A DNA stretch of 64,000 nt from the human T2T-CHM13v2.0 reference genome, Homo sapiens, in NCBI RefSeq assembly GCF_009914755.1, contig NC_060925.1. The stretch is one strand, 5' to 3'. The notes under the pieces were generated by a model that saw nothing but the letters and a program-made list of their open reading frames with translations, did not search any database and was not told the origin of the DNA. Both the position numbers and the translations under genes were made by a program. This document shows, in pieces, positions 4,136 through 54,911 of the stretch (within the stretch, counting starts at the first letter, position 1; each line of letters opens with the position of its first letter).

Positions 4136-4169
4136 CCTCGTTTTTTATTTTCTTTACTTATTTTATTTT

Positions 4170-4400
4170 CACAAACATGGAGTGCTTCTTAAATGCCAGA
4201 TTCTGTGTAATCACTTTAATTTATGGAATCCTCTTAACCCAATGAGGTAAGTATCAACATCATTCCCATGTTTCAGATGGAAACTAGAGCAAGACGGGGG
4301 TCAGTAATCAACCCAAGACAACCACACAGGGTGAGTCCTGGAGGCAGGATTAGAACCAAGGCTGGCTCAGGAGCTCCTGCATTCAAGCTGCACACTATGT
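4170..4400 (+). mobile_element. MIR SINE
   Basis: ATGAGGTAAGTATCAACATCATTCCCATGTTTCAGATGGAAAC...GGATTAGAACCAAGG. Confidence 0.7.
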
Positions 4401-4942
4401 CCCTGGCTCTTCCTTGTCTGGGGTAGAACTGCAGGAGACACACGTGCGTTCTGCTACAGTTCAGGCTGCTTAGGAACAGCCATCAGTTTTCATCAGTTCC
4501 TCTTCTGAAGTTTTTAGGGAAGGCATTCTAAATATGTGACTAGCTGAGACAGCATTACCAACCTGGTCTCGCCTGGTGTGGGAATCACAGGAAAGCAGGC
4601 TTGTTCAGAAGGAAGCTTCTCCTGTATTGGAGGAGGGCTCTGTGATACCCCAGGTGCTGGGGTGCAGGGAAGAGAGCAGGGATGGTGTGGGGAGAACAAG
4701 TTCTGGATCCAGTGGAACTACTCACTTGCTAGGTGACTTTCTGAAATGTCCCTTAACTTCTGTGGGGAGTGTTTGGGTCTACAAGATGGGAACATTATTA
4801 TTTTAGCTAGTGACCTCAGGAGTGTCAGAAAGGAGGCAGCTAGTATTCCAAAGGGCATATATTACAGGTAAGTCACTATGCTAGATATTTTCACATTTCC
4901 CCTATTGAAGCAATAACCATGGGAAGATAAAAATCATGATCA

Positions 4943-5190
<248 letters not shown>

Positions 5191-7054
5191 TCATCATAGA
5201 TAGGAAAGTGTTTTAGAAAATTGGGTGCTTTGCAAATATAAGGAATTCTTATGATAAAAAGTATGTTGCATTATACTAGATAATAAATAATAAGAAGCCT
5301 ATCGTGACGTATTTTAAGTGGTTATGGACTGTATTCCCAAAATGAGATAGACAGTGAAAAATGGATTCTGTATAATGCATCAAATAGATTTTGGAAGAGT
5401 GGAGTGCGAGAGGAAATATCCAGTGTCTGCATACAGTAGGGGATCAATAAATACTTCATTAGAAGTGGATAATAGAGAATGGCTTCAGGGCACAGCCATG
5501 AACCTAAGTCGTAAGCCCTTTTCCTCTCCCACGAGTGTGTACTTAGGACTGAAGGCTACACTACATTACCCAACAGTTGCTAGTCTTCACTCCTTAATCC
5601 TTTTCTTTTAAAATTGTATTAATTACTCACTTCTGGAATGTGTAATATGCTTCAGTCTTGGTTCTAGATATAAGAATATGTTTGAAAGTTTAAGAAATGA
5701 TGGTATTTCAATTAGAGGAAAGAGATGGGGATTTCAGGCTGAAACAGAGATTCACATCCCTCGATTTGACAAAGTAATAATTGACTCGAGAGTCCAGGGC
5801 CTTCTGAAAAGGTGGCCTTCACTAAAAACAAAATGTTATCCCATAACCCAATAAACTTAGGTACAACTCAATGTGCACTAAAGTAATTTTAGAAACCATC
5901 ATTTCATTTCAGCAGTAAATGCAGCTCAAAGTGGTATGAATTCCCCATTAAGATGATATGGTAGGGAGAGTGAAAGAATCTTTCAGTACAATCCATTTAT
6001 TTTAGTGTCCCAAATGTTCATAGCAACAGGAGCAAACGTGGTTGCAGCTGCCATTATGGTCAGCCTCCTGTCACCGTGGGAAATGGATGGCCTCTCCTTA
6101 GCCACCAACCTGCACTGCCTCCACAACAGAGGATTCATCAGTGTTCTCCAGAGAGTGGAATAGAAATCACATTTGGGTGTGTTGCAAATTAAACTTTTAA
6201 TAGAAAACCCAAGAAAGAAGCTTTGCACATTTATTTTATGGGTTACTGCTTTTGGAGAAGGAAAAGAGATTGGAAGTAGGATAGTGCAGTTAAGACTGGT
6301 TGACCCGTTCTTTGAAAATCTTCCTTTTGGAATATTTGCATGCTTCCTGAAACTTGAGGTTTCTTTTCCATTTCACTCTGGTTTTCTCATTATTTTCCAA
6401 ATAATCACCAGAAATGACTTCTTCACGATTATTCTTTCTCCTCACAAACACTTCTGAGGCTTCTGAGCCATACCTTGTATAGGACATGCCAGGATTCATT
6501 TGTTATTTCTGACCTTTGAAAAAGAAATCATGGAGCACAGACAAGGTAGTGCAGACAACCTTTTCTTCAAAGGAGAATGGTCCATTTATATGGCTACTAA
6601 ACTGCTAATGTCTTTACTTTAAAATAGTAAATAAAACTGACATTAAGTTATGACAGATTAAAAATCAGGCAAAATAATTTGATCTTTATTTCTTCCACAA
6701 GGAGAAACAAATTTGTTTTATATTTTATTTAATCTTCCCTTTTCTCTGGCTATCCTATTTTTGTAAATGAAAAAGAAAATATTTAGTCATATGGCCTTAG
6801 AATTATTAAAAGGTGACAAATGTAAAGAATGGTTCAACTTCTGGGATTAAAAAAACCTTTTATTTATATCTATGGAATTACAGAATTAACAAGGCATGGA
6901 CTAATTTCTGCCCAGGCATGTAGAGTCGCAAAGTTATGGCATATTTCAGCTGGCATAATTCATGTGATAGGTGACACCTAATTAGAAAAGATAATATTGG
7001 AACTCAGTTCTGCTAGCCTCTTGCAGACTTGCAAGAATGGAGAAGAGGGAAGTG

Positions 7055-7460
7055 TACTAGGGAATGCTAACTGCTGTCACAGATAAACTGAAATCTCAGC
7101 AACTTAACTAATAAAATCTGATTTCTTGCCAATATGAAGTTCTAAGAAGGTGTTCTTGATTTCCTGGAAGTCCAAGACATTATGTGGCCTTCCATGCAGC
7201 TGGTCACTCAGGGAGCCAGGCTGCTTCTATCTCCAATTCTTCATTCAGGAGGCAGATGGGGAAGAGGCTGAAAGTTGCAGGTGGTAGGTTAATAAAGGCC
7301 ATGACTGAGCAGCCATCACTTACACCTACATGTAATTCACTGGTACTTTAAGTCTCATGACTGTAATAAGCCCAAAGAAGGCTGGAAAATGTAATTCAGC
7401 TGTGTTCTCAGGAGAGCGAGGAAATGGGTTTAGTAGTCAGCTCACCTAGTCTCTGGCACA
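7055..7460 (-). mobile_element. MLT1 (MLT1K-like) MaLR LTR
   Basis: GGTCACTCAGGGAGCCAGGCT and GGCTGGAAAATGTAATTCAGCTGTG motifs; similar to copies at 33927-34342 and 54912-55426. Confidence 0.65.
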
Positions 7461-7782
7461 GGGAGCAAAGTCCCTGAGTATCAGGAATGATAAAGTAGAG
7501 CTTGAAGGAAGATTCAGGAGTTGGGTCAATTTACAGCAGAAGAGGAAGCTGTGAAGAGGTAATAAAAATGTTCACTATTGTCATGAACTAATGTATGGCA
7601 ATTCCCATTGTTCCATGCCCTAGCCTGCATCATAATTGTTAGAAATTTCCAATTTAATTTATTGTAAAGATTTTTTAATGGAATTGATACACTGTGGCAG
7701 TGAAAACAGGATTTTCTGTATAGCCAGCATTGCGAAAACACATCCTGTTGGTGAACACATACATCAATTAAAATGTCACCCA

Positions 7783-8216
<434 letters not shown>

Positions 8217-8870
8217 AAAAAAGCCACCCAAAGATAGGTAAACATTACTGCATGGGCAATGTATATTCCTACCTGTAAGTAATGAGTTATCAAGGGAATA
8301 ATTACAGAATCAAATTTCTCATTTCCATTTTTAATTTTTCAGTAATATAACTATGTAAGAGAAAATTTAGAAAATACAACAGGTTAATATTTTCTTTAAT
8401 CTGTGTTCTAGTCCACAAAGTCAGCTGACTTTTTGTTTTTTTCTTTTCTGATTTTTTAAAAAAGAAATATAGATGCATGCAGAACAGAAACAGAATAATT
8501 GTACTTATATTTCACCTGCAGTTTTGAATTTTGGTCAATAATAATTAGAAAAGTTATTCTTCCTGCTCAGTATTCATTGCAGTGGCCTCACCACACCAGT
8601 AGAAGAAAGAAAATCTTTGGTAAAATTGTCCTATTCTCAAAGTGGACTCTTTGGTGATTTGTTGTAGCCTCCCTCTCTCTGAATGTAATGGTAACAGCTT
8701 TAGAGTCTATGGTAACTAGACATCATCATCCTCTTAATCTTACCAAGAGGAAGTATAGTTAAAACAAGTGTTTTAAAAAAAATAAAATCTTTTAGTTTTT
8801 ATAACATTTTTAAACAAAATTATAATTTTCCTTTTATGTATACCCAGTACCATCCCTTTTAAACCTAACT

Positions 8871-8936
8871 TCATGAGCATTTTCTTTTTTTTTTTTTTCA
8901 AATTCCCTATTCTGAGAAGCACTCGTGAGCATTTTC
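8871..8936 (-). mobile_element. TSD-flanked 38-bp poly(A)-tailed micro-insertion of unknown source
   Basis: TCATGAGCATTTTC (8871-8884) and TCGTGAGCATTTTC (8923-8936) flank T14 plus 24 unique nt. Confidence 0.65.
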
Positions 8937-9110
8937 CCATGCCATTAAACATTCTTCAAATTGAGTTGTTGATAGCTGTATAATATGCCATAACGTGGCC
9001 ATGCCTGCATTGAATCAGCCATTCTCCTATAACCGAGCACTCAGGTTGCTTCCAGGTTTTTCTTTGCTCTAAATAACTCTGTGATAAATGGTAGAGTAAA
9101 TGATTCTGTG
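8937..9110 (-). mobile_element. Old L1M fragment
   Basis: GATAGCTGTATAATATGCCAT...CTCAGGTTGCTTCCAGGTTTT resembles antisense L1ME. Confidence 0.6.
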
Positions 9111-9127
9111 CATTTCTACATCCTTTC

Positions 9128-9553
<426 letters not shown>

Positions 9554-9640
9554 TAGTATGCTGAACCCTTTTGCTGTAGTGATTCTGAATGTCCCCTCCC
9601 AACCCGAGCATCATGTTTTTCAAAGCTTTGCTGTGATGAT

Positions 9641-9890
9641 CAAAATATCAAAACTTGAAATGAAGGCAGAATTTAACCCTACACTTGCACAATATGATCT
9701 CACTCACTCACTCACTCACCTATTTTGTCTTTATTTCAAATTTTGATATTTTGTACCTTGTGAACTATTTTTGCATTAATCAAAAATATATTGTTTTAAA
9801 ATGTTATCTTGATTACCGAGTTTTTTGGCACCCCTTTAAATTTGGGGGCTGGGTGAGCGCCCCTTTCACTTCATCTGTATCCTGGCCATT
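9641..9890. mobile_element. MER96B-like hAT non-autonomous DNA transposon
   Basis: Minus strand reads AAATTTAAAGGGGTGCCAAAAAACTCGGTAATCAAGATAAC, matching my recall of MER96B; contains an internal 32-bp inverted repeat. Confidence 0.6.
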
Positions 9891-10577
9891 TTAGAATCCT
9901 GGTGAGTTGGAACATTCTAGAATGCCCAGGGACATTCTAATATCTGAGAAAAAAACATCTTAGGACTTAGATTACTAAGCTTATGAAAGATCAAAGACGA
10001 TCAAGAGCTAGAGGGCCACACAAGACCTGCTGTGGGGTGGTTCACAAATGGCTGAAAATGGACAGGCCAAGGAGGGCCCATGCTGGCTGATGGCAGATAA
10101 TGGTGGTATCAGAACTTGCTTTGAAGCTTTTGCAACAAGACGTTCTATTCTCCTGATGCACATGCTTCACAAAGATTCCCCCTGAAACTGCCATTCCCCT
10201 CTCATTTGTTGAAAATATCGTTTACTGGAGCTGTGCACCCTATTACTTTTGGCTTTGATCTTTTTGAGTCTAATCACGGACTAAGAGTGTCCATGCTGTT
10301 TGGGCTGATTTAACACCAAAGCAAAGGAGGATTATCTCCTGTATTCATAATGATACTTCTCCATCCCCTAAGGTGGAGGAGACAAAGGCTAATGGTTCGC
10401 AGAAGGATGGTAACCGGACATAATGTACAGCTATCTGTGTTTAGAAATCAAGTTATCATTTTAATTCTAGAAGTATTTCTCATATAAACATATACATGGT
10501 TGTCAATAGTAAAGGTTATATAAAAAATAGCTCTTTAAAATTATCAAGGTAGTTTGCACAATGCTAAATATTAACTC

Positions 10578-10800
10578 TCATTCATTGACTCATTCATTCA
10601 CTCGTTGACTCGTTCACTTATTTATTTACTGGGCATTTATTATGTGCCAGATATGGTAGGTAGCCTCTGAGTAGACAGAGTGAAAAAAAGCCGGTAGTCT
10701 CTACTCTCACAGAGTTGACAGTTGGGTGGGAGAGATAGATAATAAATGAAATAATCACTTTGTAATTACAAATAGCAATGAGTATAAGAAAAGAGTAAAG
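10578..10800 (-). mobile_element. L2 3' end
   Basis: (CATT)n-like tail followed by TTTACTGGGCATTTATTATGTGCCAG. Confidence 0.75.
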
Positions 10801-12258
10801 TGCCCTGAATGTCTTCTTAATGTCCTGCACTTTGCCAAGCTGAGCTTTTATTGTCTTTTCATCCTGAGAATAATGCTGCAGCATGGATATAATTTTCTGC
10901 ATTTAACTGATGGTAAAATAAAGGGTAGTCTCAGCCAGCAACATGCTGAGGGTCTCCTAGAGATAGGTAGAAGTGGAGGTGGGTTTATAACTTGAGGGGT
11001 TGAGTCACGGCCTATGGTCTTACCTCTCCAAGAGTTGCTTCTTCAATCATTTGCTACCCAAACTCCATTCTCATGCCCCACAACCCCCTTGAGATTCTAA
11101 GAGGTTCATAGACATTCCTGCATTCTTACTTTGAGTTAGGAACTATGATGAGAATTGAACACAAGAGCCTCGCAGGACATCACAGTGTCTGTTTTAGAGA
11201 ACATGTTGCTATGCAACTGAATGCTTGTACATTATCTCTGCTCCCCTATGCCCCCACCACTACCCTGCTCTAGAACTTGGGGAGGTCAAGCAAAGGAAAA
11301 TTAGGATCTCGGCTGCTATGCCGAGTAGCTGTGGTTACCCAGATCCCTCCTTCGTGCTGACCCATCACAGCAAAGGAAAAAAAGAGAACCTTTCAGGAAT
11401 ACCTCAAGATTTTTCTATTAGTACATCAGCTCCATTCCATTGAGAAACCAGAACCAGAAACCACACTGTCACCCACCAGTTAGGTGACTTACTCGCTACT
11501 CCTCGGTGTGGCATGGGGGAGACTGGCCCAAGAGGCCTGGAGGTCCCTCCACGTGGAAATATAAGAACCAGGGGAGATGTTTTTTTCCAGCATACCCCAT
11601 CTCCATTTCAGTAAGTAAAACCCTATGCCTTCTGGGCAGCTATAACCTTTGGAAAAATCTGCCTGCCCTTCACAAATACTTTTTAAATTTATATGCATTT
11701 TCTTTTATAGAGATAAGGATTATAATATTAATAAATTAAGGCATAAAAACACCAGTTTAAATAATCAAGGGAGTAGTGTAGATAACTATAGTGCAAATGT
11801 GGCACTAATAAATTTACTACTAACAATTTCTTATCTACAGACCTGGACCAAAGTTCCAATTATGTAGGCAGGTGAATATCAGGATAACAGTTCATGTATT
11901 TATAACTGGTAATTGTAATTGTTTGTATAGCAGTTCAATATTGGCTATTAATATGCACCTGGCTATGTATACCCATGCAAAGGTGGCCTACATCACTGTG
12001 TCCCCAATGATGACAATCTGGACATCAGCATACAGCCAGGCCTGTTATTGGTACCCACTGAGAGTTGCCCTTCCAGACGAGCTGCTACTGTTTGTGGGGC
12101 CTGGAACTGTGAATGACTGATCCTTGGGTTTTATGTCTCCCTCTGATGTAGCTTCATCTTGTCCCTGCCCAGATTCATTCCTTCAGCAGGCATTCATATG
12201 CCTGTTTGAGGCCAGCGGTGGTGCTGGTTTCTGTAGCATGATGAGAAAGGAAGATACT

Positions 12259-12623
12259 TGATATGGTTTGGCTGTGTCCCCACCCAAATCTCATCTTGAA
12301 TTGTAGCTCCTATAATCCCCACATATCATGAGAGGGACACAGTGGGAGGTAATTGAATCATAGGGGTGGGTTTTTCCCATGCTGTTCTTGTGATGGTGAA
12401 TAAGTCTCATGAGAGCTGATGGTTTTATAAAGGCCAGTTCCCCTGCACATGCTGTCTTGCCTGCTGCCATGTAAGATGTGCCTTTGCTCCTCCTTCGCCT
12501 TCTGCCATGATTGTGAGGCTTCCCCAGCCATGTGGAACTGTGAGTCCATTAAACCTCTTTTTCTTTATAAATTACCCAGTCTCGGGTATGTCTTTATTAG
12601 CAGTGTGAGAATGCACTAATACA
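12259..12623 (+). mobile_element. THE1C/D solo LTR (MaLR)
   Basis: TGATATGGTTTGGCTGTGTCCCCACCCAAATCTCATCTTGAATTGTAG...CTAATACA; 5-bp TSD ATACT/ACACT. Confidence 0.93.
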
Positions 12624-12740
12624 ACACTTACATAGTCATCCTGCAGTTGGATGCCTGCTACAGTGGAGGTGAAACAAATTGTGAACAATGGGGTCTAAAC
12701 CTTCTCCCTAATGAATATATTAATTAAACATGCATATGGG

Positions 12741-13704
<964 letters not shown>

Positions 13705-13786
13705 TATCTTTTTTTAATTTGTAATTTTTATTTCAAGAATAGGGAAGATAAGACTGGGAAATACATTGACGGCAGAGAACTAGGGT

Positions 13787-13982
13787 CAGTGGTCCTCTGG
13801 AGATGTCTTGTATGGGCTTGAGAGAGCTGATTAATTGAATGTTCCAGGATTTGACCTGTTGTTAAACTATTAATAGCTTAAAATTGGCCATGATGGGAAT
13901 ATTTACACCATGGAAATAAGCAAATGCTACAAATCGGGGCTTCTCTCCTACAAAATTTTCCAAATTTATCAGCTTACCACTT
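13787..13982 (+). mobile_element. MER63A-like hAT DNA transposon
   Basis: CAGTGGT...ACCACT termini; ATTGGCCATGATGGGAATATTTACACCATGGAAATAAGCAAATGCTACAAATC core. Confidence 0.7.
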
Positions 13983-15559
13983 GTTATAGTTCTTAACCCC
14001 AAGCTTTTTTTTTTTCCTTGGTTTTGTTTTGGTTTTATTGTTTTAAACTGAGTGCATTCACATAGGCAGGCAAGCTCCTTGGTGCCATAGCCCCTTCACC
14101 CCGTTAATTTTGTCCTATCCCCCAGCCTGGTTCCCACATGTATACAGACAACTCTGCCACAAGCCCAGCCTTCTTAGGAATTTGTGTTTATCTCAGTGGT
14201 TTCTGGTTTTCTCTTGTGTGTGAGGGCTGGAACACCTCTTATGAATGGTCCACGGCTTTCACTCCTTCCATTGATAATGTTTGCTGCGAATGTTTTGGTG
14301 AAATCTTTCAAGAACCATGGCCATCCCCCTTCTTTTAAAGCCAAAACAGCACCAGTGCCTGGCACGGGTTATGCAGACGGTTGGCATCATCCCCTGCTAG
14401 GATTTACTATTATTTGGAAATTAATGATGGCTTCGTCTTTTCAGGAGTGGGGAGGGGAGCTGTGATTGACGAAACCTCTCTTTGACCATCTGTTTCTTTC
14501 CTTCAAGGCACTGCTTTTCACAGCCTTAAAATTTGAGAGAAATTATGCTAAGTGATCACAAATTTTCTTTAAAGTTTTACTTCAAAGGAAAACAAAAGAA
14601 AGCCTTTCAAAAAGACGACTAGCTCTTTTTCTGGAGGTCAATATACCACAGATTATAAGCCAGAAAAAAAAAAAAAAGGTAAAATGAGATTTTTGCTTGG
14701 ATTTGTTTTTAATTAAGACCTAAATCATGATTCTCTTAGAATGGAATAGAAAGTGACAGTAGCTCTGAGACCTACTTGATCAATTTTGCAATATCCCAGC
14801 TGCCAGCAGGGAAATGAGAGGAGGTAGGTATATCCAGGAGAATTCCTTTATATCCAGTTGACAGCCACCAGCACCAGTGCAAGTCAGGACATCTTACTAT
14901 TTCTAACCTCCCACCTCCAGAAACAAAGCTGATTATATTTGTCTGTTCCTTCCAGTAGGAAATTTTATGAATCTTGTCCTCAAAAGCTTTCTGAAAACCC
15001 ACCTCTCCTCCTAGCCAATTCGAAGGCCTAAATGTCTTGATTTTATGCAATGCAAATACATGAAAATATAGTTTTATCCATGAAATTAAAGAGGATACCA
15101 ATGATTCACTTTACACTGGGATTCTTATAGGATTTCTTTAATTAATAAATCCCTATAATGAATTCAAAATGACATCTGTTGTTCAGGAATTAAATGTACA
15201 CTCCACTTTTCAGGAATGTGTTTATTTTACCAAGCAGGATACATACCTGTATTTAGCATCCTCTACTTGGGAAGATTTTCTTATATGTAAATTTTCTGTA
15301 TTTATTTAAAGGCTATTTTAGCATATTATTTCTTAAGTAGATATGGAAAATCATTTATGTTTTTCCAGCACTTGTATCCTTTTTCTTTTGAGAACATCAG
15401 GTACACGGGGTTGATTTCATCATGCCCCTTGGTTGCTGGCTCACTGTTCTCACTGGGTCATGCAGAGACCTTCTCTCGTGCTACTAAGACTCCCTCTTCC
15501 TCCCATCCCCTCCGGCCTAAATAGGAAACTAGAACCAAGAAATATGATGGAATATGCCA

Positions 15560-16620
15560 CTGGTGTTAGGAATGGCAATTTTACATAGGATGGCCTGTTT
15601 GTAGCACAGGCCTGAAGAGATGAAGTAGGGATTCATGGAGATGTATAGGGGAGGAGTATCCAAGACAGAGGAGGGCAAGTGCAAAGGTCTTAAGGTTAGA
15701 ATGCACCTGCCATGTTTGCAGAGTGGCACAGAGGCCAGTATGGTTGAAACAGAGCCAGTGAGGGAGAGAAGTAGAGGTTAGTTGGTTAGAAAGGTCAGAA
15801 AGGTCACTTATAGGCTGTGATAAGGACTTTGGCTTTTACTTTCAAGAAACCAGTAGAGGGTTTGAAGCCAAAGAATTATGTGATTTGACTTACTTTTAAA
15901 AGGAACATTCTGACTATGTTGGGGGGAGACTAGTCTATGTGGGAGCAGGGAAGATTAGAAGCAGGGGGTCTAGTTATGAGGCTACCTGTGGTGGCCCAGA
16001 GGACAGCTGGTAGTGGCTCAGATTAGCACAGTAGCAGTAGAAGTGTCAGGAGCCTAGGCATATTTTTAAGAACCAACACGATTTACTGATGCATCATATG
16101 TGGGACACACAAGTGTGAAGATCAAATGGGATGATGGAGGTGGCCACTTACCAAGAGTGAAGATGGTGGTCTGAGCAGATTTGGCGTGGGCTTAAGGAGT
16201 TGGGATTTGGAAATGCCAAGTTTGAGGTGCCTATTAGACATGCAAGAAGAGACATTGGAATAGGAAAATGGATATGCAAGTCTGGATTTCAATTTGGGGA
16301 ATCATCTATGTATAATTGATTTTTAAAATCATGAGATTGGATGAGATCATCAAAGATGTGAATATAAGTAGAAGAAGAAATGATCCAAGGACCCGGTCTT
16401 ACCTCACCTCACTCCGGCTTTCTTTCTTTATTTGGAGTGTACATCGTTATCTGACATGATCACATACATGAATTTGCTTATCGGTTTGTTGTCTTTCTTT
16501 CCAAACTCAAGGCAAGATTATGCCAGTGGGGGCTGTGTTGGTTTTATGCACTGCTTTACTCAGCACCACAACCATGTCTGAAATAAGGTGTAGTCAATAA
16601 ATATTTTTTAAATTAAAGAA
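15560..16620. mobile_element. L2 LINE (minus 15560-16390; plus 3' end 16400-16620)
   Basis: GATAAGGACTTTGGCTTTTAC, CAAGTTTGAGGTGCCTATTAGACAT and GTCAATAAATATTT L2 motifs. Confidence 0.75.
15792..15806 (+). promoter_or_regulatory. Perfect DR3 nuclear-receptor element (VDR/RXR type)
   Basis: AGGTCA-GAA-AGGTCA; motif match only. Confidence 0.4.
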
Positions 16621-18812
16621 TTTAAAAATCTGCAGATAACCCCCAACTCAGCTTAATTGACAATCTCAACCTTCTTACTCTACAGCTTCCAATAAATGCT
16701 TATGGGACTTGAAAAATAAGTAGCAAAATATATGATTTTTCATTTACTTTCCTAATCCTTTCCTAGAAGGACATGAAAATAGTAGAATTATCTAAACACA
16801 ATAAAGGGGAGAAAGAGGAGGAGGTGCTAAAGACATATTTTTCAAGAACCAACAAGATTTACTGATGGATTGTATATGAGATGTAAAAGAGCATGAAAAA
16901 CAAATAGAATAGAGGTAGCCACTTACCAAGAGAATGAAGACTGTGGTACAAGATGATTTGGATAGTGGAGCTGGGGAGTTGACTTAATTTAGTCTGTGAG
17001 CACAACTGCAAGTGCATTGTGCCCAAGGCCGTGTGCTGAGCACAAGGAATGCAGAGTAGAAGACACAGCCCCTATCCTCAAGAACTTATGGTTGGGAAGG
17101 AATGATAGAAAACACAGGTAAGGTGATAAATTGTGCTGAGGTTGGAAAAGCTTAGTAAATCAAATGAAAAATTAAAAATAGCTTTAGGCTATGCAACATT
17201 TAGGTATGCAGAAAGACATGCCTGCATTTCTTTCATAAAGCTTTTTGGTAATCTCATGTTTCTAACTTAAGTGTTCTTGGAGTAATGTGTACATTAAGCA
17301 TTTATCAAAAAAGTCATTTCTCACGTGGGGAGCTATGAAATTGACAAAGTTTGGATTTGAAGTGACAAAGCCCTTCAGGAAATTCTTCTAATAATTTTCT
17401 GTGTTTGACACCAATTCATTAGATAAGTATGATGTAGAAGGAATGAGAGCTGTGTGATTGTCATTACAGGTTATTCATTTTTTAGGCTGTGTCAGGAGAG
17501 TCCCCAGAGTGTGGCTTGTAGGATTTATTTAACCAAAATGATTGTATCATTGATCACCAAATTCCTTCCTGATGAACAGACTTGGAAGGAATGTGGGAAG
17601 GGCCTGCTGCTCTAGACCTTAGTCCCACCAGTGCTTACATATTCCCATTTATCCTAACAACTGGGGATTCAAAGGTCTACTAATATTCTGAGGCCAAAGC
17701 TGGGTAGTATTAGAGGGAATTTTGATATTTCATTTAAGTTGCAGTTGAATAGCCTTAACTTTCTGCACAACGATTGGTTCTTTTTGGTGAAGGTTTCCTT
17801 TTTGAAATGAAGAAAACTGCTATAGGTCTGGCGCTTTGGCTTTATAAAGGTACTGTTGTCTTTGCTTTTCAGGTAAAGAAACTGAAGCCTACAGAAAAGC
17901 TTATTCAAGCCCATGCAAATAATAATTGGTGAGGGTGGATTTGAACCCAGGTCTGATAGGCTCTAATCTATGTAAACCATATTATTCTGGCTCTCTCAAG
18001 GCTTGTGCTATAGAATCCAAGAACTAGAGATGAACTGAGAGGTCAGGGAGGCTAAGCTTCTCATTAATGTTCATCCAACTTCTACAGGAATAATGTCTTT
18101 AATTATATTTCTTTTTTCCCAGCTAAAACATACTATATTTCAATTTGTATTACTATATCAATAACATACAAAAATATAAATATCTTGGAATATTGTGGCA
18201 GTGGCAGAAGAAGTTTTAAATATCCTCAATTTTTTTAAAAAATAGAGCAAAAAGATAGCAAAACCAAAACACATGAATGTCATTAACAAATTAAATTGAC
18301 AAAAATATGATTTTGGGGAGACAAATCATTAATAGCAACAAGGGCCCACATTATATCAGCCATAATTTAGCAGGAGGAAGCTAAGGGGAGAAACAAAGCA
18401 GTTGACATGCCTCAGGATCCCCAAATGTCCAACATGTACTCAATGGAAAGTAGCCAAAACTGGGAGAGGCTTTGTGTACTCTACTAGCAGGTGAATAAAA
18501 AGAGTTAACAGTAAGATCTAAAGGAGTGGAATGGTCTGGGTTTCTTGAACATTTGAAACTTCCTTCCAGGGTAGTCACTCACTGAGGACAAACTGTTGAG
18601 AGCAGGACCCAAACTGAGCAGTATAAAGACAAGGGAAAGAGAAGGTAAAGATAAAAGTGGAAGAAGTGCCTAGAGGTAAGAGATCTCAGAGAACAAGCTG
18701 CTGTATGTTTTGAAAACTGCATGAAAACAAAAGGAGAAGGTGCTGTAAAGCCTAAAGTTGGAAAAGTTAGTAAAACTATACTGAACTATATCCCGATTAA
18801 AAGTTGAAAAGA

Positions 18813-19103
18813 TGCTGAGCGTGTTGGCTCATACCTGTAATCCCAGCACTTTGGGAGGCTGAGGCAGGTGGATGACCTGTCAGGATTTCAAGAACAGCCT
18901 GGTCAACATGGCAAAACCCCGTCTCTACTAAAAATACAAAAGATTAGCTGGGAGTGGTGGTGGGAGCCTGTAATCCCAGCTACTCAGGAGGCTGAGGCTG
19001 GAGAATTGCTTGAACCCAGGAGGCGGAGGCTTCAGTGAGCTGAGATCTCACCATTGCACTACAGCCTAGGTGACAAGAGTGGAACTCTGTCTCAAAAAAT
19101 AAA
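18813..19103 (+). mobile_element. AluS SINE
   Basis: Full Alu; TSD AAAAGTT(G/T)AAAAGA at 18799-18812 and 19104-19117. Confidence 0.95.
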
Positions 19104-19159
19104 AAAAGTTTAAAAGAGCAAATTTTACATAGAAATGGGCAACAGGAAAAGATCACAGT

Positions 19160-19479
19160 TGCTACGGTTTGAGTATTTGTCACTTCCAAAACTTGTGTTG
19201 AAACTAATTGCCATTATAACAATATTAAGTAGTAGGACCTTTAATAAATAACTCAATTTAAGGGGGACTATGCTCTTATAAAAGGGAAAGTTCAGCCTCC
19301 TTTCCCTCTCTCTTTGCTCTTCTACCATGTCAAGATGCAGCAAGAAGACTCTTGCCAGATGCTGACAACTTGATATTGGACTTTCCAGCCTTCAGAACTG
19401 TGGGCCAATAAATTTTTCTTCATTATAAATTATCCAGTCTGTGGTATTCTGTAACAGCAACACAAAATGTACTAAGACA
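19160..19479 (+). mobile_element. MST-type MaLR solo LTR
   Basis: TGCTACGGTTTGAG...GACTTTCCAGCCTTCAGAACTGTG...AATAAATTT...ACTAAGACA. Confidence 0.8.
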
Positions 19480-21749
19480 TAGGTATAATCTTATTTAAAA
19501 AATAATAAAGAGTAAAATAGCTTCACAAAAAATTTAAAAATGCTACTAATACAGGCCCATCCCCCTTCAAATAAAAACTACAACCCACTATTTCTAACAA
19601 GCTAAAAAAAAAACCTAAGAAAATGTCACATGATGTGGAAAAATACATAATTCCAAATTAGGAAGATTTATAAATGAAGTTATATCACTCAGAAAGGATA
19701 AAAATGGAAATTTTTTTAAGGATTTGAGGGAAAGTGACAAATTTAGAAGGCAGTCAAAGGAGATCCAACATACGTATAATAAGGGCTCCAAAGAAAATCA
19801 AAATGAGGGAACAAAAAAATACCCAAAACTATAATTTCAAAAGTTTCCCAAAACAATTGTTTAAATTACATATTGAAATTACACACCACATAACTAAGGA
19901 AACTGACCCAAAATAACCAACACTGAGAGAAAGTTAATAAAACTATTAGACTTTGAAGAAAAACAAAAATTTAGGCATCCAGGCAAAAAGATCAAATCAC
20001 TTATAATAGACAATATCAGGCTTTCAGTAGACTTTCCTACAACATTGCTTTATACTGTAAGGAAATAGAATAATATATTTAAGATAATTAAGGAAAGATG
20101 TGTGAGCTAAAAATTTTATATCCAACTAAATTGACATTCACATGAAGGGCTCAGGCAAACTCAATGACTTGGAGAATATTTTTCCCATGAGCTTTTTCTG
20201 AGGAATTTAGTGAGAGTAAATTCCAATAAACCAAATTAACTAGAGAGTTATTAACATACAGCTTGATACTGAGTGCTATATATATTTATAGTAGAAGAAT
20301 TGCTAATGCTGAGTCTGTTTCATATATAATGAAATAAATCACATGGGCAATTATGTGATTTTCTAATTCTTGAATCCCCTGTGTTCTCTAGAATCAGTAT
20401 TCTGGCATGGAAGAAAGTAAATATAAATGCCAGGTAGAAAAGGTCAAGTAAAAATCCTGTGGTACTGAATTTAAATTGGAAGTATCATACATTGTGAGTT
20501 CATACTCGTGTACTGAAAAGGCTTAGAAAGAGAAAGCAACCCAATAGCAATGACATCTCTAGGACCCAGATTATGATCTTGAAATACTATTTCCCACTAA
20601 AAGAAAACAGCTATTCTTGGGAAATTAGAGGATTCTAGGTCTGGGCAGAATTTGTACAAGATGAGCCTAGGAGATTGTGTCATACACATACCTCGTTAGC
20701 AAGGAAGCTAGAAAACTATTAGGATTATGTCAAAAGGACAAAGGAACTAATGATTTTCCCACTGGACAAAGATCAGACAATTTATGTTCAGTAAGGATAA
20801 TATTTTCGGTGAACTGAAGCTCAATAAATATGTTTAAATTTATGAATTCATAAGGATAGAAAATAATTTGTCATTTTTGAAAATAATAACCACTTATTTT
20901 TTAAACTGGTAAATAATGAGGGCAAAAAATAATCTGTCTTTTCTATATGAGTTTCATCCCTGATAACCAAGCAGTAGATGAGTGAATTTTATCTTTATAG
21001 AATTATTTCAACTAATAACTAAATGAAGAATGATTAAATTAGAATATTACTATTTTGCAACTCAGATAAATTAATAGATCTAGGCATTGTACATCATTTG
21101 CTGTTATCATAAGTAAAGACACAACCGTACATCACATGGCTGTGATAGAAGAATACAATACTATTAATATCTCTATAGTTGTCTTGCCAAAAATTAAACC
21201 CAATGATCAATCCAGTAGATCCACAGAGATGCAATCAGCAAAATCCAGATAGTAAGAAACTCTATAGGACACACTTGTTTTCTTCAACAAATAAATTACA
21301 TGAGAAACAAATGTGGAGAGACCAAAGGGTAACCTGTAGACTAATAGAGACATAAAAATAACAGGGGAAATGAAATATAGGGATGTATAATCAGGTGATA
21401 AAACTGTAAAGGAAAGCTCAGAAGCGATTGCCATAAAAGTGAGGACAAAGATTACTTTTGAGGGTGTAGGGAAGGGAATTGTTGTTAAAATGATTGTATA
21501 GAGGGTTTATGAGGTGTCTGGCAGATTTCTTTGTCTTGATTTGGGTCATGGTTACAAAGTGTTGACCTTATAATAGTTTATTAAACTAAGCATTTATTTA
21601 ATGCAGTTTTTTGTATCTGTATTATTTTACAACTAATAAGCTTTTTAAAACATATATAATGTACCTTTTTATTAATTTCTCCAATAGGTTTCATGCAAAA
21701 TAAAACTCACACCACATTGGACAGGCAGACCTGTAAACAAGTAGGTCTT

Positions 21750-37104: not shown

Positions 37105-37830
37105 AAAAGCTTCACTGCTGGTGGAATTACAAAATGATGCAGCCACTTTGGAAAATAGTTTGGTAGCTCCTGAAAATGTTAAATAGCTAGTTACTGTATG
37201 ACCCAGCAATTCCACCCACACATACATATCCCCAAAGAATTGCGGTGTATATCCGTGTGAAAACTTATGCACAGCTGCTCACAGCAGCATTATTCATAAT
37301 AGCCAAAAAGTGGAAACAAAAATGACATCAGCTGATGAATGGACATACAAAATGTAGTATAACCACACAATGAAATATTATTCATCCATAAACAAAATGT
37401 GGTATAACCACACAATGAAATATTATTCATCCATAAACAAAATGTGATATAACCACACAATGAAATATTATTCATCCATAAAAAAGGATGAACTACTATA
37501 ACATGGATGAAGCTTGACAACATTACACAAAGTAAAAGAAGCAAGTCATATAAAGCCACGTATTATATGATTTCATTTATGCGAATGGTCTAGGATAGAT
37601 AAATTCATAGTCAGAAAGCAGATTAGTGGTTGTCAGCGGAGGGGGGATGTAGGGAGTGACCACTATTAGGTAAGGGGTTTCTTTTGGGGATAGCAAAAAA
37701 GAAGCTTCTAAAATGGGATAGTGCTGATGGCCGCACAACTCTGAATACACTAAAAACGTCTGATTTGTCACTTTAAAAGGGTGAATTTTGTGGTACGTGA
37801 ATTATATCTCAATAAAGCAGTTGTAAAAAA
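37105..37830 (+). mobile_element. L1MB-like 3' end
   Basis: GCAGCCACTTTGGAAAATAGTTTGG...GAAAGCAGATTAGTGGTTG...GTGAATTATATCTCAATAAAGC. Confidence 0.85.
37348..37482. repeat. 45-bp tandem repeat, 3 copies
   Basis: CAAAATGT(AG/GG/GA)TATAACCACACAATGAAATATTATTCATCCATAAA starting at 37348, 37393 and 37438. Confidence 0.97.
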
Positions 37831-40219: not shown

Positions 40220-40337
40220 TTTTTTAACAGCTTTATTGAGATAAAATTCACATACCATACAATTCAGCCATTTGAAGTGTACAATTCATGGTGTTGAGTA
40301 TATTCACAGAGTTATGCAGCCATCACCACAGTCAATG
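40220..40337 (-). mobile_element. L1MB 3' tip inside a MIR
   Basis: AACAGCTTTATTGAGATAAAATTCACATACCATACAATTCAGCCATTTGAAGTGTACAATTC. Confidence 0.8.
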
Positions 40338-50881: not shown

Positions 50882-51425
50882 TGTGGTACTTTTAAAACAT
50901 GTTCCCAAATTCTTTGACACTCTTCCCATGGACAGGTGGGAGTCATGTCCCCTCCCCTGAATCAAGGCAGTGTTGTAAAGAGGGTGAAACTGATGCTATG
51001 TGAGACTAGGTCATGAAAGGTTCAGCAGCTTCTACGTTGTTCATGGGGACATTCACACTTAGAGGCCAAGCAGCCATGTTAGAAATCCAGCTATCCCTAG
51101 TCCGCCATACTGGGAGGAAGCCCAAGCCAGTCACATGGAAAGGCCATGCGTAGGTGCTCTGTTTGGAAATCTCAGCTAAGCCCCCAGCCTTTGTATTGAT
51201 TTTGCTCAGGCACCAGATATATGAGTAAAGAGACTCTCCATTATTTCAATGGCAAATGATTTACATCCTGCCTGCTAAAGCCCCTGACATAATGAAGCAG
51301 AGACAAACCATCCCCACTCTGCTGTTTCTAAATTCCTGACCGACAGGATCCATGAGCACCATGCAGCAGTTGTTGTTCTACACCATTAAACTTTGAGGTG
51401 GTTTGCTACACAGCAATGAAGGATG
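50882..51425 (+). mobile_element. MLT1F/G-like MaLR LTR
   Basis: TGTGGTACTTTTAAAACATGTTCCCAAATTCTTTGACACTC...GGTGGTTTGCTACACAGCAAT. Confidence 0.8.
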
Positions 51426-51559
51426 GGAATGGGTCTGTTTCAGCTCTAAAAGTTGATTATTCGGTAAAACTCCAAAACTAATTCCTGTTCTTCAAAAAGA
51501 AAGCTCTGATTATGTGAACTTTTGAATTAAAGAAAAACAGTTGCAGAAGGATCAAGACA

Positions 51560-52050
51560 GAGATTGAATTATTCAGAGAAATTATCGTCAACAAACCCAA
51601 ACTGGTTGAAATTGCAAAATGAATTTATCGACCCACAAAATCAGGAAGTTCCAGGTGTGAATCTAGTACTACAAGATTCAAGCATTCAAGAGATGATTAG
51701 AAACCAGTCCTCTCCAATTCTGCATTCTGCTTTGCTCCGTGCTGTCTTCATTGTCAGGCAGGCACTCCCCAAGGGGAAGCCAGATGGCCAGACCAGCACC
51801 CACTGAGCCCCAGAAGAAAGGGAGTCTCTTTACGATCATTTCAGCACATGTCCCAGGCCTGTCTGCTGTTCCCTCACTTCCATATGTATGAATTCCATAC
51901 CTATGGCTGTGGCCATGGGAAAAGAGGTCCCTGATTGGCCAGGTGGGGCTGCATTTCTACCTGTTGAGCCAGAAACAGTGTCTATGAATCCTGAATGTTG
52001 AAAGAAATGAGGTTCTCAGTCTTGTATTATCAGAAACAGAAATGAATACT
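51560..52050 (-). mobile_element. Old MLT1 (J-like) LTR
   Basis: TCAACAAACCCAAACTGG, CTTCATTGTCAGGCAGGC and CTGATTGGCCAGG motifs. Confidence 0.5.
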
Positions 52051-52194
52051 AAGTGAAAAAAAAAACAGATACCCCTTAGGCAGAAACTTCTTCTTCTGCC
52101 CACAGCTGTCCGTTTGGCATAACCTGATACTACTCGGGCTTCCTAGAACTATCCCTTTTACAGGTTTAATTAACCCCAAAGCAGCAAAAAAGCA

Positions 52195-53175
52195 GTTATG
52201 CCTTCAGTACAGGTTCATGAAAGATATTTTCTAGACTTACAGAGTTTGGAGATTCCTAATATTTAACCATCCCTTCCATTATTCTCTTTTGCTGTTAATA
52301 AATATTTCTGAATTTTACTGATTAGTTCCTTTATACACATGTTTATTCAGTAATAAAAATGGAAATAGCATGCCCAAATTACCTTCAAAATAAGCCAATT
52401 GTTAAAAAGCAGGAAGTATTTAGTTTCATGGATCTTATGCTAATCATTACGTTTTACTCAAATAATACAATATAAAGCCCCCAAGCTCTATAAATACACT
52501 CATTTTCCACATGTTCTTTTGCTTCAGAATCTTAATGTTGAATCTCACCATCAACTTCGGGATTCTAAGACACATATATATGAGATCCGGGATTTTTTTC
52601 TTGGGGTCAATCAATAAAATGGAGCAGAAAGAAACAGAATCAGCAAGACATTCAAAACTTGCTTTTTACATGATAGATAAAAGATGGAAAAGAAACAGAG
52701 ATCTAAGGAAGGAAAAAGACAACTAACATCACAGAAACAATATTATGAGAGTTAAAAAAAAAGTTGATGGTGAGATTCAACATTAAGACTTTGAAGCAAA
52801 AGAACATGTGGAAAATGAATATATTTATAGAGCTTGGGGGCTTTAGTTGTATTATTTGAGTAAAACATAATGATTAGCACAAGATCCATGAAACTAAATA
52901 TTTCCTGCTTTTTAACAATTGACTTAGTTTGAAGGTAATTTGGGCATGGTATTTCAACTTTTATTACTGAATAAACATGTCTATAAAGGAACTAATCAGT
53001 AAAATTCAGAAATATTTATTAATAGCAAAAAAGAAGAAACTAAGGGATGATTAAATATTAGAAATATTTATTAACAGCAAAAAAGAAAAAAAAAATCGAT
53101 GGTTAAATGTTAGGAATCTCCAAACTATAAGTCTAGGAAATATTTTTCATGAACCTGTACTAGAGGAGGCATAAC
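52195..53175. repeat. Long inverted repeat: arms 52195-52557 and 52761-53175, 203-bp spacer
   Basis: By manual alignment the reverse complement of the right arm matches the left arm end to end, with about 15 differences over the inner ~255 bp; right arm carries an extra 52-bp duplication. Confidence 0.97.
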
Positions 53176-53214
53176 CAAAACAACAACAACAAAAAACATG
53201 TTTCCCCTTCCAGA

Positions 53215-53228
53215 ATGCCCCCTAGTGA
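53215..53228 (-). promoter_or_regulatory. CTCF-like motif
   Basis: Minus strand TCACTAGGGGGCAT, 12/14 match to CCASYAGRKGGCRS with intact core; motif match only. Confidence 0.4.
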
Positions 53229-53830
53229 ACCCAAAATTACCAGCAGGAAAGAAAGGGCCTAACCCTGGAACTGAAACTATGTAATCTATGCTTGTGTGAT
53301 TCCTCAGCCTAATTCTGGGGTCTTCCTCATTCCAGGGTTCTCAGAATTCCATCCACGGAATGGGGAACATTGACATTGCCAATGACATTGAAGGATCATC
53401 TGTTTACCCACTGTGACCACCATCACTTCTCTTACATGAGGAAGAGGCTCTTGTTCTCTTTAAAGATGATAAGGTTGATTGAGATAGAAGTCACTCAGTC
53501 TTAGAAAGCTCTCAACCATTCCCCTCCCCGGCATAGCCTTGTCCTTGCACCATCTCCAGGAAGGCAATGTCTCTCCCTTTCTTGTTGGGTTATCTCTTCT
53601 TTGTTGTGTTGTTGGATCCACCATCATTTGGGAAGAGAAGAGGGATAGGGTCAAAAGTTGCTGTCATCTTGCTCAGACTCCTTATTAAGACATTCTGGGA
53701 GGGAGGAAAGAGAGACTTCTATGCCTTTCTGGAAGTTTCCTTCAGCTGCCATCTGGGATGTCTCAGAAGATCAAGTTGTCACTGGGGTAGGTCCAGAAAA
53801 ATCCAGGCACAGTGAAAAGTTCTCCCGGAC

Positions 53831-54135
53831 TTTTTTTTTTTTTTTTTTTTTTTTTGACACAGGGTCTCACTCTGTCACCAGGCTAAGTGCAGTGGCATGA
53901 TCATGGCTCACTGCAGCCTTGACCTCTTGGGCTCAAGCAATCCTCCTGCCTCAGCTTCCTGAGTAGCTGGGACTACAGATGCATGCAACCAAGCCCAGCT
54001 AATTTTTGTATTTTTTGTAGAGACGGGGTCTCACTATGTTGCCCAGGCTGGTCTTGAACTCCTGAGCTCAAGTGATCCACCTGCCTCGATCTCCCAAAGT
54101 GCTGGGATTACAGGTGTGAGCCACTGTGCCCGACC
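53831..54135 (-). mobile_element. AluJ SINE
   Basis: ATCATGGCTCACTGCAGCCTTGACCTC and CACTATGTTGCCCAGG; T25 tail. Confidence 0.93.
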
Positions 54136-54911
54136 CTCCTTGGATCTTGTGGGGAGCTTGTGAAGGTGAATTTCTAGATTCTCCAAATGTTAGAAAGAGG
54201 CCAGGAAAGGGGGACACTGCAGTCTTGGAAGAGGAGCCCAGATTCAACAGATGCTCAGCAGTGAGAGGAAATAAATTAGCCCTTTCTTCTTGTTTATGTC
54301 ATGTCTTTCTCTCTGTGCCTCCACTGTAGAATGCTTTTATCTATAAATGTGTTTTTCAAGTTAGAAATTACAGAGATCCAGATGTTCCTAAGGAGTCTTC
54401 TCCATTTGGTTTCTGTTTTGGTCACAAAGATGGATGTTTTATATTCAGATCTGTTTCCTTGCTAGTCATAAGCTGATGGATAAACTTGGAGTTCACACTA
54501 CCCAGAATGACTTGTCTATGACAGCATCTTATTATCATGGCTTTAATTAGGGACTGGCATTTGTGTGGTGGTGAATTTTCTCCAGATCTTATTCCTGGAG
54601 ATACCTTAATGATACCACTGCCCCATGAATTGCACTGGCTTCCTGTCTGTTTCTCAATCTTGCCAGGGCCTTTCCTACCCCAGGACCTTTCCTCATGTTG
54701 TTCCCTCTGCCTGGAACATTCCTGTCCAGCAACTCAGGCAACTCATGCTCTTCCTTCAAATATCAGTTCAGGGGCTGCCTACTGGGGTTGCTCTGTTGGT
54801 ATACATTCCCTACTCCATCCTATTCCATATAGCTCTTAGGAGGATTCAAATGCTTAAACAAATCTTTAGACATACACTTGATGGGTATTAGCTCTAATAA
54901 TGTTTGCTATA

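What the first reader, a model, noticed from the sequence alone, without database searches (positions are those of the whole stretch)
52195..53175. ~1-kb inverted repeat (foldback) built from sequence that is not a recognisable repeat
Seen: 52195-52557 is the reverse complement of 52761-53175 (from GTTATGCC...AGTACAGGTTCATG to AATCTCACCATCAACTT). Identity is roughly 94% in the inner ~255 bp by manual count, with a 203-bp spacer. The arms are AT-rich and I do not recognise them as Alu, L1 or LTR. Known: close, high-identity long inverted repeats are recombinogenic, can extrude hairpins or cruciforms, can mediate recurrent inversion of the spacer and give long dsRNA (ADAR/Dicer substrate) if transcribed. 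Inference: this is a local fold-back duplication, possibly homogenised by arm-to-arm gene conversion, or an unannotated foldback-type element; the flanks CAGCAAAAAAGCA and CAACAAAAAACA are weakly TSD-like. The arm mismatches show no clear strand bias toward G-U wobble (about 8 versus 6), so sequence alone does not show selection on RNA structure.
Basis: partly seen in the sequence, partly recalled or inferred. Interest (0 to 1): 0.8.

Follow-up and report, generated by a model that had tools for sequence, protein, structure and literature searches.

The report
Single-copy inverted duplication in KAZN intron
A real, roughly 1-kb imperfect palindrome made of otherwise unique intronic DNA, most likely an old local inverted duplication that has since decayed neutrally; it is an ordinary member of a catalogued class, not a new mobile element.

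Summary
Arms 52195-52557 (363 nt) and 52761-53175 (415 nt) are reverse complements around a 203-nt spacer: 339 of 360 aligned columns match (94.2%), with one 52-nt indel block. The RNA fold is -528.6 kcal/mol, z = -45.

Both arms, the spacer and both flanks match nothing else in the T2T genome; the arms match only each other. nhmmer against 264 kb of other human DNA gave 0 hits. In the control, 17 of 42 tiles had hits. Rfam and Pfam gave nothing. It is therefore not an Alu or L1 pair, and not a detectable transposon family.

The 21 mismatches (14 transitions, 7 transversions) are spread 7/7/7 over thirds. There is no conversion tract and no wobble bias (6 versus 8). The TSD-like flanks are explained by A-richness (P = 0.25-0.33).

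Best reading: a local inverted duplication, with the right arm probably copied into an A-rich tract. Arm divergence (K2P 0.061) dates it to roughly the ape/Old World monkey split. It is now a neutral intronic hairpin-forming relic. No primate genomes, Dfam, pangenome or RNA data could be consulted. Interest is low.

The parts
52195..52557 (.). Left arm (A), 363 nt, 30% G+C. Probably the original copy, and lacks one 52-nt unit that the right arm has.
   Evidence: alignment to the right arm, 339/360 identical. (only two places in the genome match it: itself and the right arm). (composition).
52558..52760 (.). Spacer (S), 203 nt, 32% G+C, 46% A on the + strand; unique in the genome.
   Evidence: 1 match, itself, at E<=10. 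(composition). (forms only small local hairpins in the loop).
52761..53175 (.). Right arm (A'), 415 nt, 28% G+C. Probably the inserted inverted copy.
   Evidence: (only itself and the left arm in the genome). (both adjoining 12-mers have 8/12 A; only 79 of 62,046 placements of a 415-nt segment in the window have flanks that A-rich).
52995..53098 (.). Two tandem 52-nt units inside the right arm (52995-53046 and 53047-53098). The left arm has one unit, which accounts for the 52-nt gap between the arms.
   Evidence: D1, 79%. (41/52 identical, 0 of 5000 shuffles reach this; the inner unit matches the left arm 46/52, the outer unit 42/51).
52754..52762 (+). A9 run at the spacer/right-arm junction, preceded by TT. 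Its last two A also belong to the repeat, giving 2 nt of possible junction microhomology.
   Evidence: sequence. (alignment ends at ...CAACTT / AAGTTG...)..
53176..53198 (+). A-rich (CAA)n-like tract directly after the right arm. Together with the A9 run it may be the two halves of one A-rich tract split by insertion of the right arm (inference).
   Evidence: (11 nt before plus 24 nt after the right arm are 71% A).
52175..52194 (+). Its similarity to 53176-53205 is not more than A-richness gives.
   Evidence: score 9; P = 0.25 against shuffled flanks, 0.33 against A-rich 30-mers, 0.025 against random places.

Best explanation
A stretch of about 415 nt of unique, AT-rich intronic DNA was copied once, in inverted orientation, to a site about 200 bp away. 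The cause was a DNA-level error: a replication template switch or fold-back repair, like the '3-2-1-4' type of the four-point template-switch model but far longer. The right arm is probably the copy, dropped into an A-rich tract. Since then the two arms have diverged independently and neutrally to 94% identity. That places the event near the split of apes and Old World monkeys, roughly 15-40 My ago. The left arm lost, or the right arm gained, one 52-nt unit. The locus lies in introns of KAZN (+), LOC107985467 (+) and LOC124905691 (-). Any effect today is therefore a by-product: the intronic RNA of either strand can fold into a duplex of about 360 bp, an expected nuclear ADAR substrate that is removed with the intron. 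Shown: the repeat, its uniqueness, the even neutral-looking divergence, the folding potential. Inferred: the mechanism, which arm is the copy, the date, the RNA fate.
For: Repeat and boundaries.

Single-copy status: left arm, right arm, spacer, left flank and right flank each match only this locus in the 3.1-Gb genome. In the 2.6-kb query only the Alu at about 53822-54138 is multi-copy (Rfam SRP-like hits).

No relation to common interspersed repeats: nhmmer with the arms, the spacer and the whole unit gave 0 hits at E<=10 in 264 kb (the window without the repeat, plus 200 kb from four other chromosomes). Controls worked: 17 of 42 363-nt tiles of the window and 5 of 5 masked stretches had non-self hits.

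Neutral-looking decay: 14 transitions to 7 transversions, spread 7/7/7 over thirds, longest perfect tract 41 nt, no conversion tract. G:U-compatible changes are 6 on one strand and 8 on the other.

Right arm as the copy: both of its edges abut A-rich DNA (0.13% of placements), and the G+C step is sharper at its outer edge (0.25 to 0.46) than at the left arm's (0.425 to 0.385 to 0.30).

Folding: -528.6 (+) and -532.8 (-) kcal/mol.

The class is known. Template switches that create inverted repeats: PMC5453318, passages read. Intronic inverted duplicated sequences are common and weakly selected: PMC7006430, passages. About 0.5 million non-repetitive predicted dsRNAs: PMC11838218, sections 9-10 and passages.
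Against: No outgroup genome could be consulted. The ancestral state, the date and the identity of the copied arm are therefore untested.

The whole 981-nt unit is AT-poorer than both flanks in G+C (24-33% against 39-52%), and its left edge also abuts an A-rich stretch. This fits insertion of the unit as a whole about as well.

Junction microhomology is only 2 nt and lies in a homopolymer, so it says little.

The genome search uses a loose first look and skips very common words (tool text). A low-copy family more than about 20-25% diverged would be missed, and Dfam was not available.

Described template-switch events are tens of bases long, not 400; the authors say they do not model long-range switches.

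The two tandem units in the right arm are 79% alike, less than the arms are to each other. The order of events in that part is therefore unclear.
Confidence: 0.62

Rival explanations
1. The 981-nt unit is one inserted mobile element of foldback or MITE type, with long terminal inverted repeats and a 203-nt centre. It survives as a single or very low-copy member of an unannotated or ancient family.
For: The unit is a discrete AT-rich block with G+C steps at both outer edges. Both outer flanks are A-rich and loosely alike (P = 0.025 against random places). An arm divergence of 6% would fit the last wave of DNA-transposon activity in anthropoid primates (recalled, not checked here).
Against: No other copy of an arm or the spacer exists in 3.1 Gb; a family active 30-40 My ago should leave copies BLAST can see. 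The flank similarity vanishes once A-richness is allowed for (P = 0.25 and 0.33), and the right-hand motif is not adjacent to the arm end. There are no 2-, 3-, 4-, 8- or 9-nt direct repeats at the exact edges (read by eye). Pfam found no match above its cut-off in 7 of the 21 stop-to-stop frames of 30 aa or more, chosen as the longest overlapping the unit.
Confidence: 0.08
2. The right arm is an L1-mediated retrocopy of an antisense (- strand) transcript of the left-arm region, inserted next to its source.
For: The sequence just before the right arm is TT followed by A9, like the L1 endonuclease target (consensus recalled). The arm is followed by a 23-nt A-rich tail-like tract. A - strand lncRNA gene spans the locus (hub annotation).
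Against: Retrocopies land essentially anywhere in the genome, so landing 203 bp from the source is very improbable a priori. The tail is (CAA)n-like, not pure A. No target-site duplication can be told apart from the A-tract. The left arm's outer end on the - strand is not followed by an A-run, and no canonical AATAAA lies just before it (by eye).
Confidence: 0.06
3. The repeat is much older than 6% divergence suggests and is kept similar by arm-to-arm gene conversion.
For: Close inverted repeats are known conversion substrates (general knowledge). It cannot be excluded without orthologues.
Against: Differences are evenly spread (7/7/7). The longest identical tract is 41 nt, below the random mean of 58.7. 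A 52-nt indel and four small indels persist between the arms.
Confidence: 0.1
4. The hairpin is a selected RNA element: a hairpin-RNA or endo-siRNA source, a miRNA precursor, or a structure that regulates KAZN or lncRNA processing.
For: Very stable fold on both strands. It is transcribed as intron on both strands according to the annotation.
Against: No Rfam family matches inside it at E<=1. 7 of 21 differences are transversions that break pairs. The 14 transitions split 6 to 8 between the strands, so neither strand's pairing is favoured. The 52-nt indel makes a large bulge. It lies in no annotated exon. Neither lncRNA name appears in any paper.
Confidence: 0.05

Closest known systems
Inverted repeats created by replication template switching (four-point model, event type 3-2-1-4 / 1-4-3-2; Loytynoja & Goldman 2017, PMC5453318, passages read)
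   Same: A reverse-complement copy of nearby sequence is written in one event, giving an inverted repeat with a spacer and a hairpin-forming transcript. No mobile element is involved.
   Different: Described events are short mutation clusters of tens of bases, found between human and chimpanzee. Here the copied fragment is about 415 nt and about 6% diverged. The authors state that long-range switches are outside their model. Whether the same mechanism acted here is inferred, not shown.
Human intronic long inverted repeats (LIRs) and 'inverted duplicated sequences'. Sources: Wang & Leung work as cited in Lirex, PMC5414712; Barak et al. 2020, PMC7006430; non-repetitive dsRNAs of dsRNAscan, PMC11838218
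   Same: A close inverted repeat in a long intron of a gene, made of non-repeat sequence and predicted to form dsRNA in pre-mRNA. This is a catalogued class. [quoted passage not shown]
   Different: At about 360 paired bases and -529 kcal/mol it sits at the long end. dsRNAscan reports medians for non-repetitive dsRNAs of 75 bp (unedited) and 144 bp (edited). It is below that paper's 'long and highly paired' cut (>96% paired). I could not check whether this locus is listed in any of these resources. LIRBase keeps only arms >400 nt, so the 363-nt left arm would fail its filter.
Inverted Alu pairs
   Same: Arm length of about 300-400 nt, intronic position, and the expected ADAR substrate behaviour.
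   Different: The arms are not Alu or any common repeat. They arose by local duplication, not by two independent insertions. They are more alike (94%) than the other close inverted pairs in the same window (76-84%).
Foldback / MITE-type DNA transposons
   Same: Long terminal inverted repeats around a short centre, AT-rich, about 1 kb.
   Different: No other copy in the genome, no target-site duplication beyond what A-richness gives, and no coding remnant.
Inverted-repeat-mediated polymorphic inversions (InvFEST-type; PMC13629690)
   Same: Two inverted arms that could in principle invert the spacer by homologous recombination.
   Different: No entry near the estimated hg38 position among that paper's 612 candidate regions (the position was estimated from recalled KAZN coordinates). 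The arms are 94% identical with at most 41 nt of perfect identity. That catalogue's breakpoint repeats range from 140 bp to 190 kb.

Membership tests
Local inverted duplication / long inverted repeat of unique DNA | Two arms in reverse-complement orientation, close together, far beyond chance | tested here: met
   339/360 identical, 203-nt spacer, fold z-scores of -45 (RNA) and -72 (DNA).
Local inverted duplication / long inverted repeat of unique DNA | Arm sequence occurs nowhere else in the genome | tested here: met
   Searches (arms; spacer; flanks): only this locus. Limit: BLAST-level sensitivity after a loose first look.
Local inverted duplication / long inverted repeat of unique DNA | Outgroup genomes carry one arm only (the ancestral state) | not testable with these tools
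   No primate or other mammalian genome is held; one search states that the genome 'has no relatives here'.
Template-switch event (four-point model) | Microhomology or a clean switch at the two junctions of the copied fragment | tested here: inconclusive
   There is 2 nt (AA) of possible microhomology at the spacer/right-arm junction, inside an A9 run. The outer junction cannot be judged without the ancestral sequence.
DNA transposon (foldback / MITE) | Multiple dispersed copies of the family | tested here: not met
   no other copy; 0 nhmmer hits in 264 kb.
DNA transposon (foldback / MITE) | Target-site duplication directly flanking the termini | tested here: not met
   flank similarity is no better than shuffled flanks (P = 0.25) or other A-rich 30-mers (P = 0.33). 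The right-hand motif starts about 17 nt beyond the arm end.
DNA transposon (foldback / MITE) | Match to a curated repeat consensus (Dfam/Repbase) | not testable with these tools
   No repeat library is available. The hub note says the stretch is not masked in NCBI's file, but that file lists no families.
Pair of interspersed repeats (Alu, L1, LTR) in opposite orientation | Each arm matches many other genomic copies | tested here: not met
   Positive controls (5 of 5 masked stretches and 17 of 42 tiles find copies in the same database).
Structured RNA gene (miRNA / hairpin RNA) | Match to a described RNA family | tested here: not met
   6 matches at E<=1 in 51000-54500, all inside the Alu at 53854-54134 and none in 52195-53175.
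Structured RNA gene (miRNA / hairpin RNA) | Substitutions that preserve pairing on the transcribed strand | tested here: not met
   6 (+) against 8 (-) wobble-compatible transitions, plus 7 transversions that break pairs on both strands. With two arms of one species, true covariation cannot be assessed.
Structured RNA gene (miRNA / hairpin RNA) | Small-RNA reads or A-to-I editing from the locus | not testable with these tools
   No expression, editing or small-RNA data are held.
Segmental duplication | At least 1 kb long and at least 90% identical. The 1-kb figure is recalled; the 90% figure is in the passage read. | tested here: not met
   Arms are 363 and 415 nt. Identity of 94% would pass.
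Inverted-repeat-mediated polymorphic inversion | Both spacer orientations seen among human haplotypes | not testable with these tools
   No pangenome is held. The Table S1 search found no chr1 entry at about 14.22-14.28 Mb hg38 among 612 candidates. The coordinate is my estimate.

The most novel reading that the evidence does not exclude
A single long-range template switch at a poly(A) tract created, in one step in a catarrhine ancestor, a hairpin of about 400 bp from unique DNA. That is an order of magnitude longer than described short template-switch events. The resulting non-Alu, single-copy intronic dsRNA is used today: it is heavily edited by ADAR, or processed into small RNAs that act on KAZN or the two overlapping lncRNAs.
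Probability: 0.07. Interest if true: 0.45.

Novelty: new member of a known kind. Interest (0 to 1): 0.2.

Why it matters
The finding matters little by itself. It is a clean example showing that long hairpin-forming inverted repeats in human introns need not come from Alu or L1 pairs; they can arise by local inverted duplication of unique DNA. Because it maps uniquely, it would be a convenient locus for studying ADAR editing or dsRNA sensing without the multi-mapping problem of Alu. Its junctions, once compared with other primates, could show whether template switching works at the 400-nt scale. Nothing found here points to a function or to instability.

Tried and rejected
I kept the 200 kb and did not ask again.
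3. A sequence-only profile of the inner 148 nt of both arms (A1, R1), meant to search the genome more sensitively: this genome cannot be searched with a model. R1 was not used further.
4. Coding remnants: 21 stop-to-stop frames of 30 aa or more overlap 52100-53300. I gave Pfam 7 of the 21, the longest overlapping the unit. There were 2 weak matches, both for one frame (E 0.066 and 0.23, far below cut-off), and 0 for the other six.
5. Copies elsewhere in the 64-kb window by blastn with word size 7: only matches of 13-37 nt (mostly 13-26 nt) in low-complexity or A-rich stretches.
6. TSD reading: rejected on the shuffles and the A-rich controls.
7. Gene-conversion reading: rejected on the spacing of the differences.
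8. A 9-nt direct copy of the right arm's last 8 nt plus 1 flank base lies 71 nt before the left arm (52116-52124). I tried to fit it to switch-and-return models on paper, and none reproduced the observed junctions. I treat it as chance.
9. Literature on the locus: 'KAZN' plus 'inverted repeat' gave 25 papers, and the 10 listed were all irrelevant. The two lncRNA names gave 0 papers.
10. The inversion catalogue of PMC13629690, Table S1: its smallest entry (197 bp) is on chr11, and there is none near this locus.
11. Supplements of the bioRxiv dsRNAscan preprint and the additional files of PMC7006430, which may list this locus, were not opened.

Full report
**The observation**

The sequence and the repeat finder show four collinear inverted pairs between 52201-52557 and 52761-53166.
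- left arm 52195-52557 (363 nt)
- spacer 52558-52760 (203 nt)
- right arm 52761-53175 (415 nt)

Of 360 aligned columns, 339 are identical (94.2%). Of the 58 gap columns, 52 form one block. The K2P distance is 0.061.

The unit folds at -528.6 kcal/mol as + strand RNA, against -182.8 +/- 7.7 for 20 shuffles (z -45). It folds at -532.8 as - strand RNA and at -333.9 as DNA (z -72).

Within the window it is the longest and most similar close inverted repeat. The other pairs of 80 nt or more within 3 kb are 76-84% complementary, and at least two lie in masked, Alu-sized stretches.

**What the arms are made of**

Each part was searched separately against the whole 3.1-Gb genome. The left arm, right arm, spacer, left flank 51500-52194 and right flank 53176-53815 each match only this locus. 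The arms find only each other. In a 2.6-kb query the only multi-copy part is the Alu beginning near 53822. That Alu also explains all six weak Rfam matches in 51000-54500; none lies in the repeat.

That search uses a loose first look, so I added a more sensitive test on a smaller target. nhmmer with each arm, the spacer and the whole unit was run against 264 kb of human DNA: the window with the repeat masked, plus 200 kb fetched from four other chromosomes. It gave 0 hits at E<=10.

The test has power. Five of 5 masked stretches of the window found 8-120 non-self hits, and 17 of 42 tiles of 363 nt taken every 1.5 kb found at least one.

Seven of the 21 stop-to-stop frames of 30 aa or more were scanned against Pfam, with nothing near a cut-off.

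The arms are therefore not Alu, L1, L2, MIR or any family common enough to appear in that sample, and no younger family member exists anywhere in the genome. A low-copy, strongly diverged family cannot be excluded, because no Dfam or Repbase library was available.

**How the arms have evolved**

- The 21 mismatches are 14 transitions and 7 transversions. Only one sits in a CpG context.
- They fall 7/7/7 in thirds of the arm.
- The longest mismatch-free stretch is 41 nt, against a mean of 58.7 for random placement (P of 41 or more = 0.93). There is no sign of a recent conversion tract.
- Transitions that would still pair as G:U number 6 on the + strand RNA and 8 on the - strand RNA. Neither strand's structure has been favoured.
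- The 52-nt gap is explained by two tandem 52-nt units in the right arm (52995-53046 and 53047-53098). They are 41/52 identical, and 0 of 5000 shuffles reach that.
- The left arm has one unit. It matches the inner right-arm unit better (46/52) than the outer one (42/51).
- The two units differ more from each other than the arms do. The ancestral arm may therefore already have had both units, with the left arm losing one, but this low-complexity patch also evolves faster than the rest, so the order is open.

**Age**

If the arms diverged independently, 6.1% (about +/- 1.3% sampling error; own arithmetic) is about the human-macaque level of neutral divergence. That figure, roughly 6-7% and 25-30 My, is recalled and was not checked here. 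I therefore expect the duplication in apes and probably Old World monkeys, with a range of roughly 15-40 My. No other primate genome could be consulted.

**Origin**

The whole unit is AT-rich (24-33% G+C in 200-nt windows) between flanks of 39-52%. Three of the four arm boundaries abut A-rich DNA:
- 52175-52194, before the left arm
- an A9 run preceded by TT, before the right arm
- a 23-nt (CAA)n-like tract, after the right arm

Only 79 of 62,046 placements of a 415-nt segment in this window have both adjoining 12-mers as A-rich as the right arm's. The simplest reading is that the right arm was written into one A-rich tract and split it.

The G+C step is also sharper at the right arm's outer edge than at the left arm's, as expected if the left arm is continuous with its old neighbourhood. 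Possible microhomology at the inner junction is 2 nt.

This fits a switch-and-return replication error or fold-back repair. The four-point template-switch model has an event type that creates exactly this layout (PMC5453318, passages), although described cases are tens of bases long. The same A-rich features also allow two rivals, which I rank low:
- An L1-type retro-insertion of an antisense transcript. This is very unlikely to land 203 bp from its source.
- Insertion of the whole unit as a mobile element.

**What it does now**

By the hub's annotation the repeat lies in introns of KAZN (+), LOC107985467 (+) and LOC124905691 (-), and in no exon. Either strand's precursor RNA can form a duplex of about 360 bp with a 203-nt loop and one 52-nt bulge.

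From the literature read:
- Intronic inverted duplicated sequences are common and only weakly selected against. The strong selection acts on mature mRNA (PMC7006430, passages).
- dsRNAscan predicts about 0.5 million non-repetitive dsRNAs in human, with median lengths of 75 bp (unedited) and 144 bp (edited). It singles out 2,018 that are >300 bp and >96% paired (PMC11838218, sections 9 and 10 and passages).

This hairpin is long for its class but falls below that pairing cut. I infer that it is a nuclear ADAR substrate discarded with the intron. That was not tested.

At the DNA level, a 203-nt spacer, 6% divergence and at most 41 nt of perfect identity argue against frequent cruciform extrusion or recurrent inversion (general knowledge, recalled). 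The locus is not among the 612 candidate inverted-repeat inversions of PMC13629690 (Table S1 searched), using an hg38 position that I estimated from recalled gene coordinates.

**Comparison and verdict**

This is a member of the known class of human intronic long inverted repeats of non-repeat origin. [quoted passage not shown] LIRBase would filter this one out, because one arm is under 400 nt (PMC8728187, passages).

It fails the tests for a transposon family, an interspersed-repeat pair, a segmental duplication and a described RNA family. I found nothing in print on this locus: 'KAZN' with 'inverted repeat' gave 25 papers, of which the 10 listed were irrelevant, and the two lncRNA names gave 0 papers.

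It is real, tidy and datable, but nothing suggests function or novelty of kind. Interest is low. What remains open is the ancestral state, a Dfam check, haplotype orientation, and RNA editing or small-RNA evidence.

Noticed in passing
window 53822-54138 (- strand): A full-length Alu directly downstream of the repeat. It produced all the genome-wide hits of the 2.6-kb query (2569 candidates) and all six weak Rfam matches (SRP, mir-1268, mir-1285, mir-3135 models), every one below gathering score.
   Followed up: partly
window 3849-4095 with 4943-5190, and 7902-8089 with 9130-9317: Two inverted pairs of Alu-sized masked repeats, 79-84% complementary and about 0.85-1.1 kb apart. These are ordinary inverted Alu pairs, inside or next to exon 1 of LOC107985467 as annotated (4113-21740).
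   Followed up: no
window 52116-52124 and 53168-53176: A 9-nt direct repeat: the last 8 nt of the right arm plus the next base recur 71 nt before the left arm. This also gives an 8-bp mini inverted repeat with the left arm's first 8 nt. It fits no switch model I tried and is probably chance.
   Followed up: partly
window 52754-52776 and 53086-53108: The junction sequence 'A-run + start of right arm' resembles an internal stretch of the right arm's outer 52-nt unit (19 of 23 identical, family D2). It could be low-complexity chance or a trace of how the tandem unit arose.
   Followed up: no
window 37739-37828 and 40220-40309: Another inverted pair, 90 nt long, 76% complementary and 2.4 kb apart. 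It was not identified further.
   Followed up: no
window 4113-21740: The predicted first exon of lncRNA LOC107985467 is annotated as 17.6 kb long and contains several masked repeats. It looks like a weak gene model.
   Followed up: no
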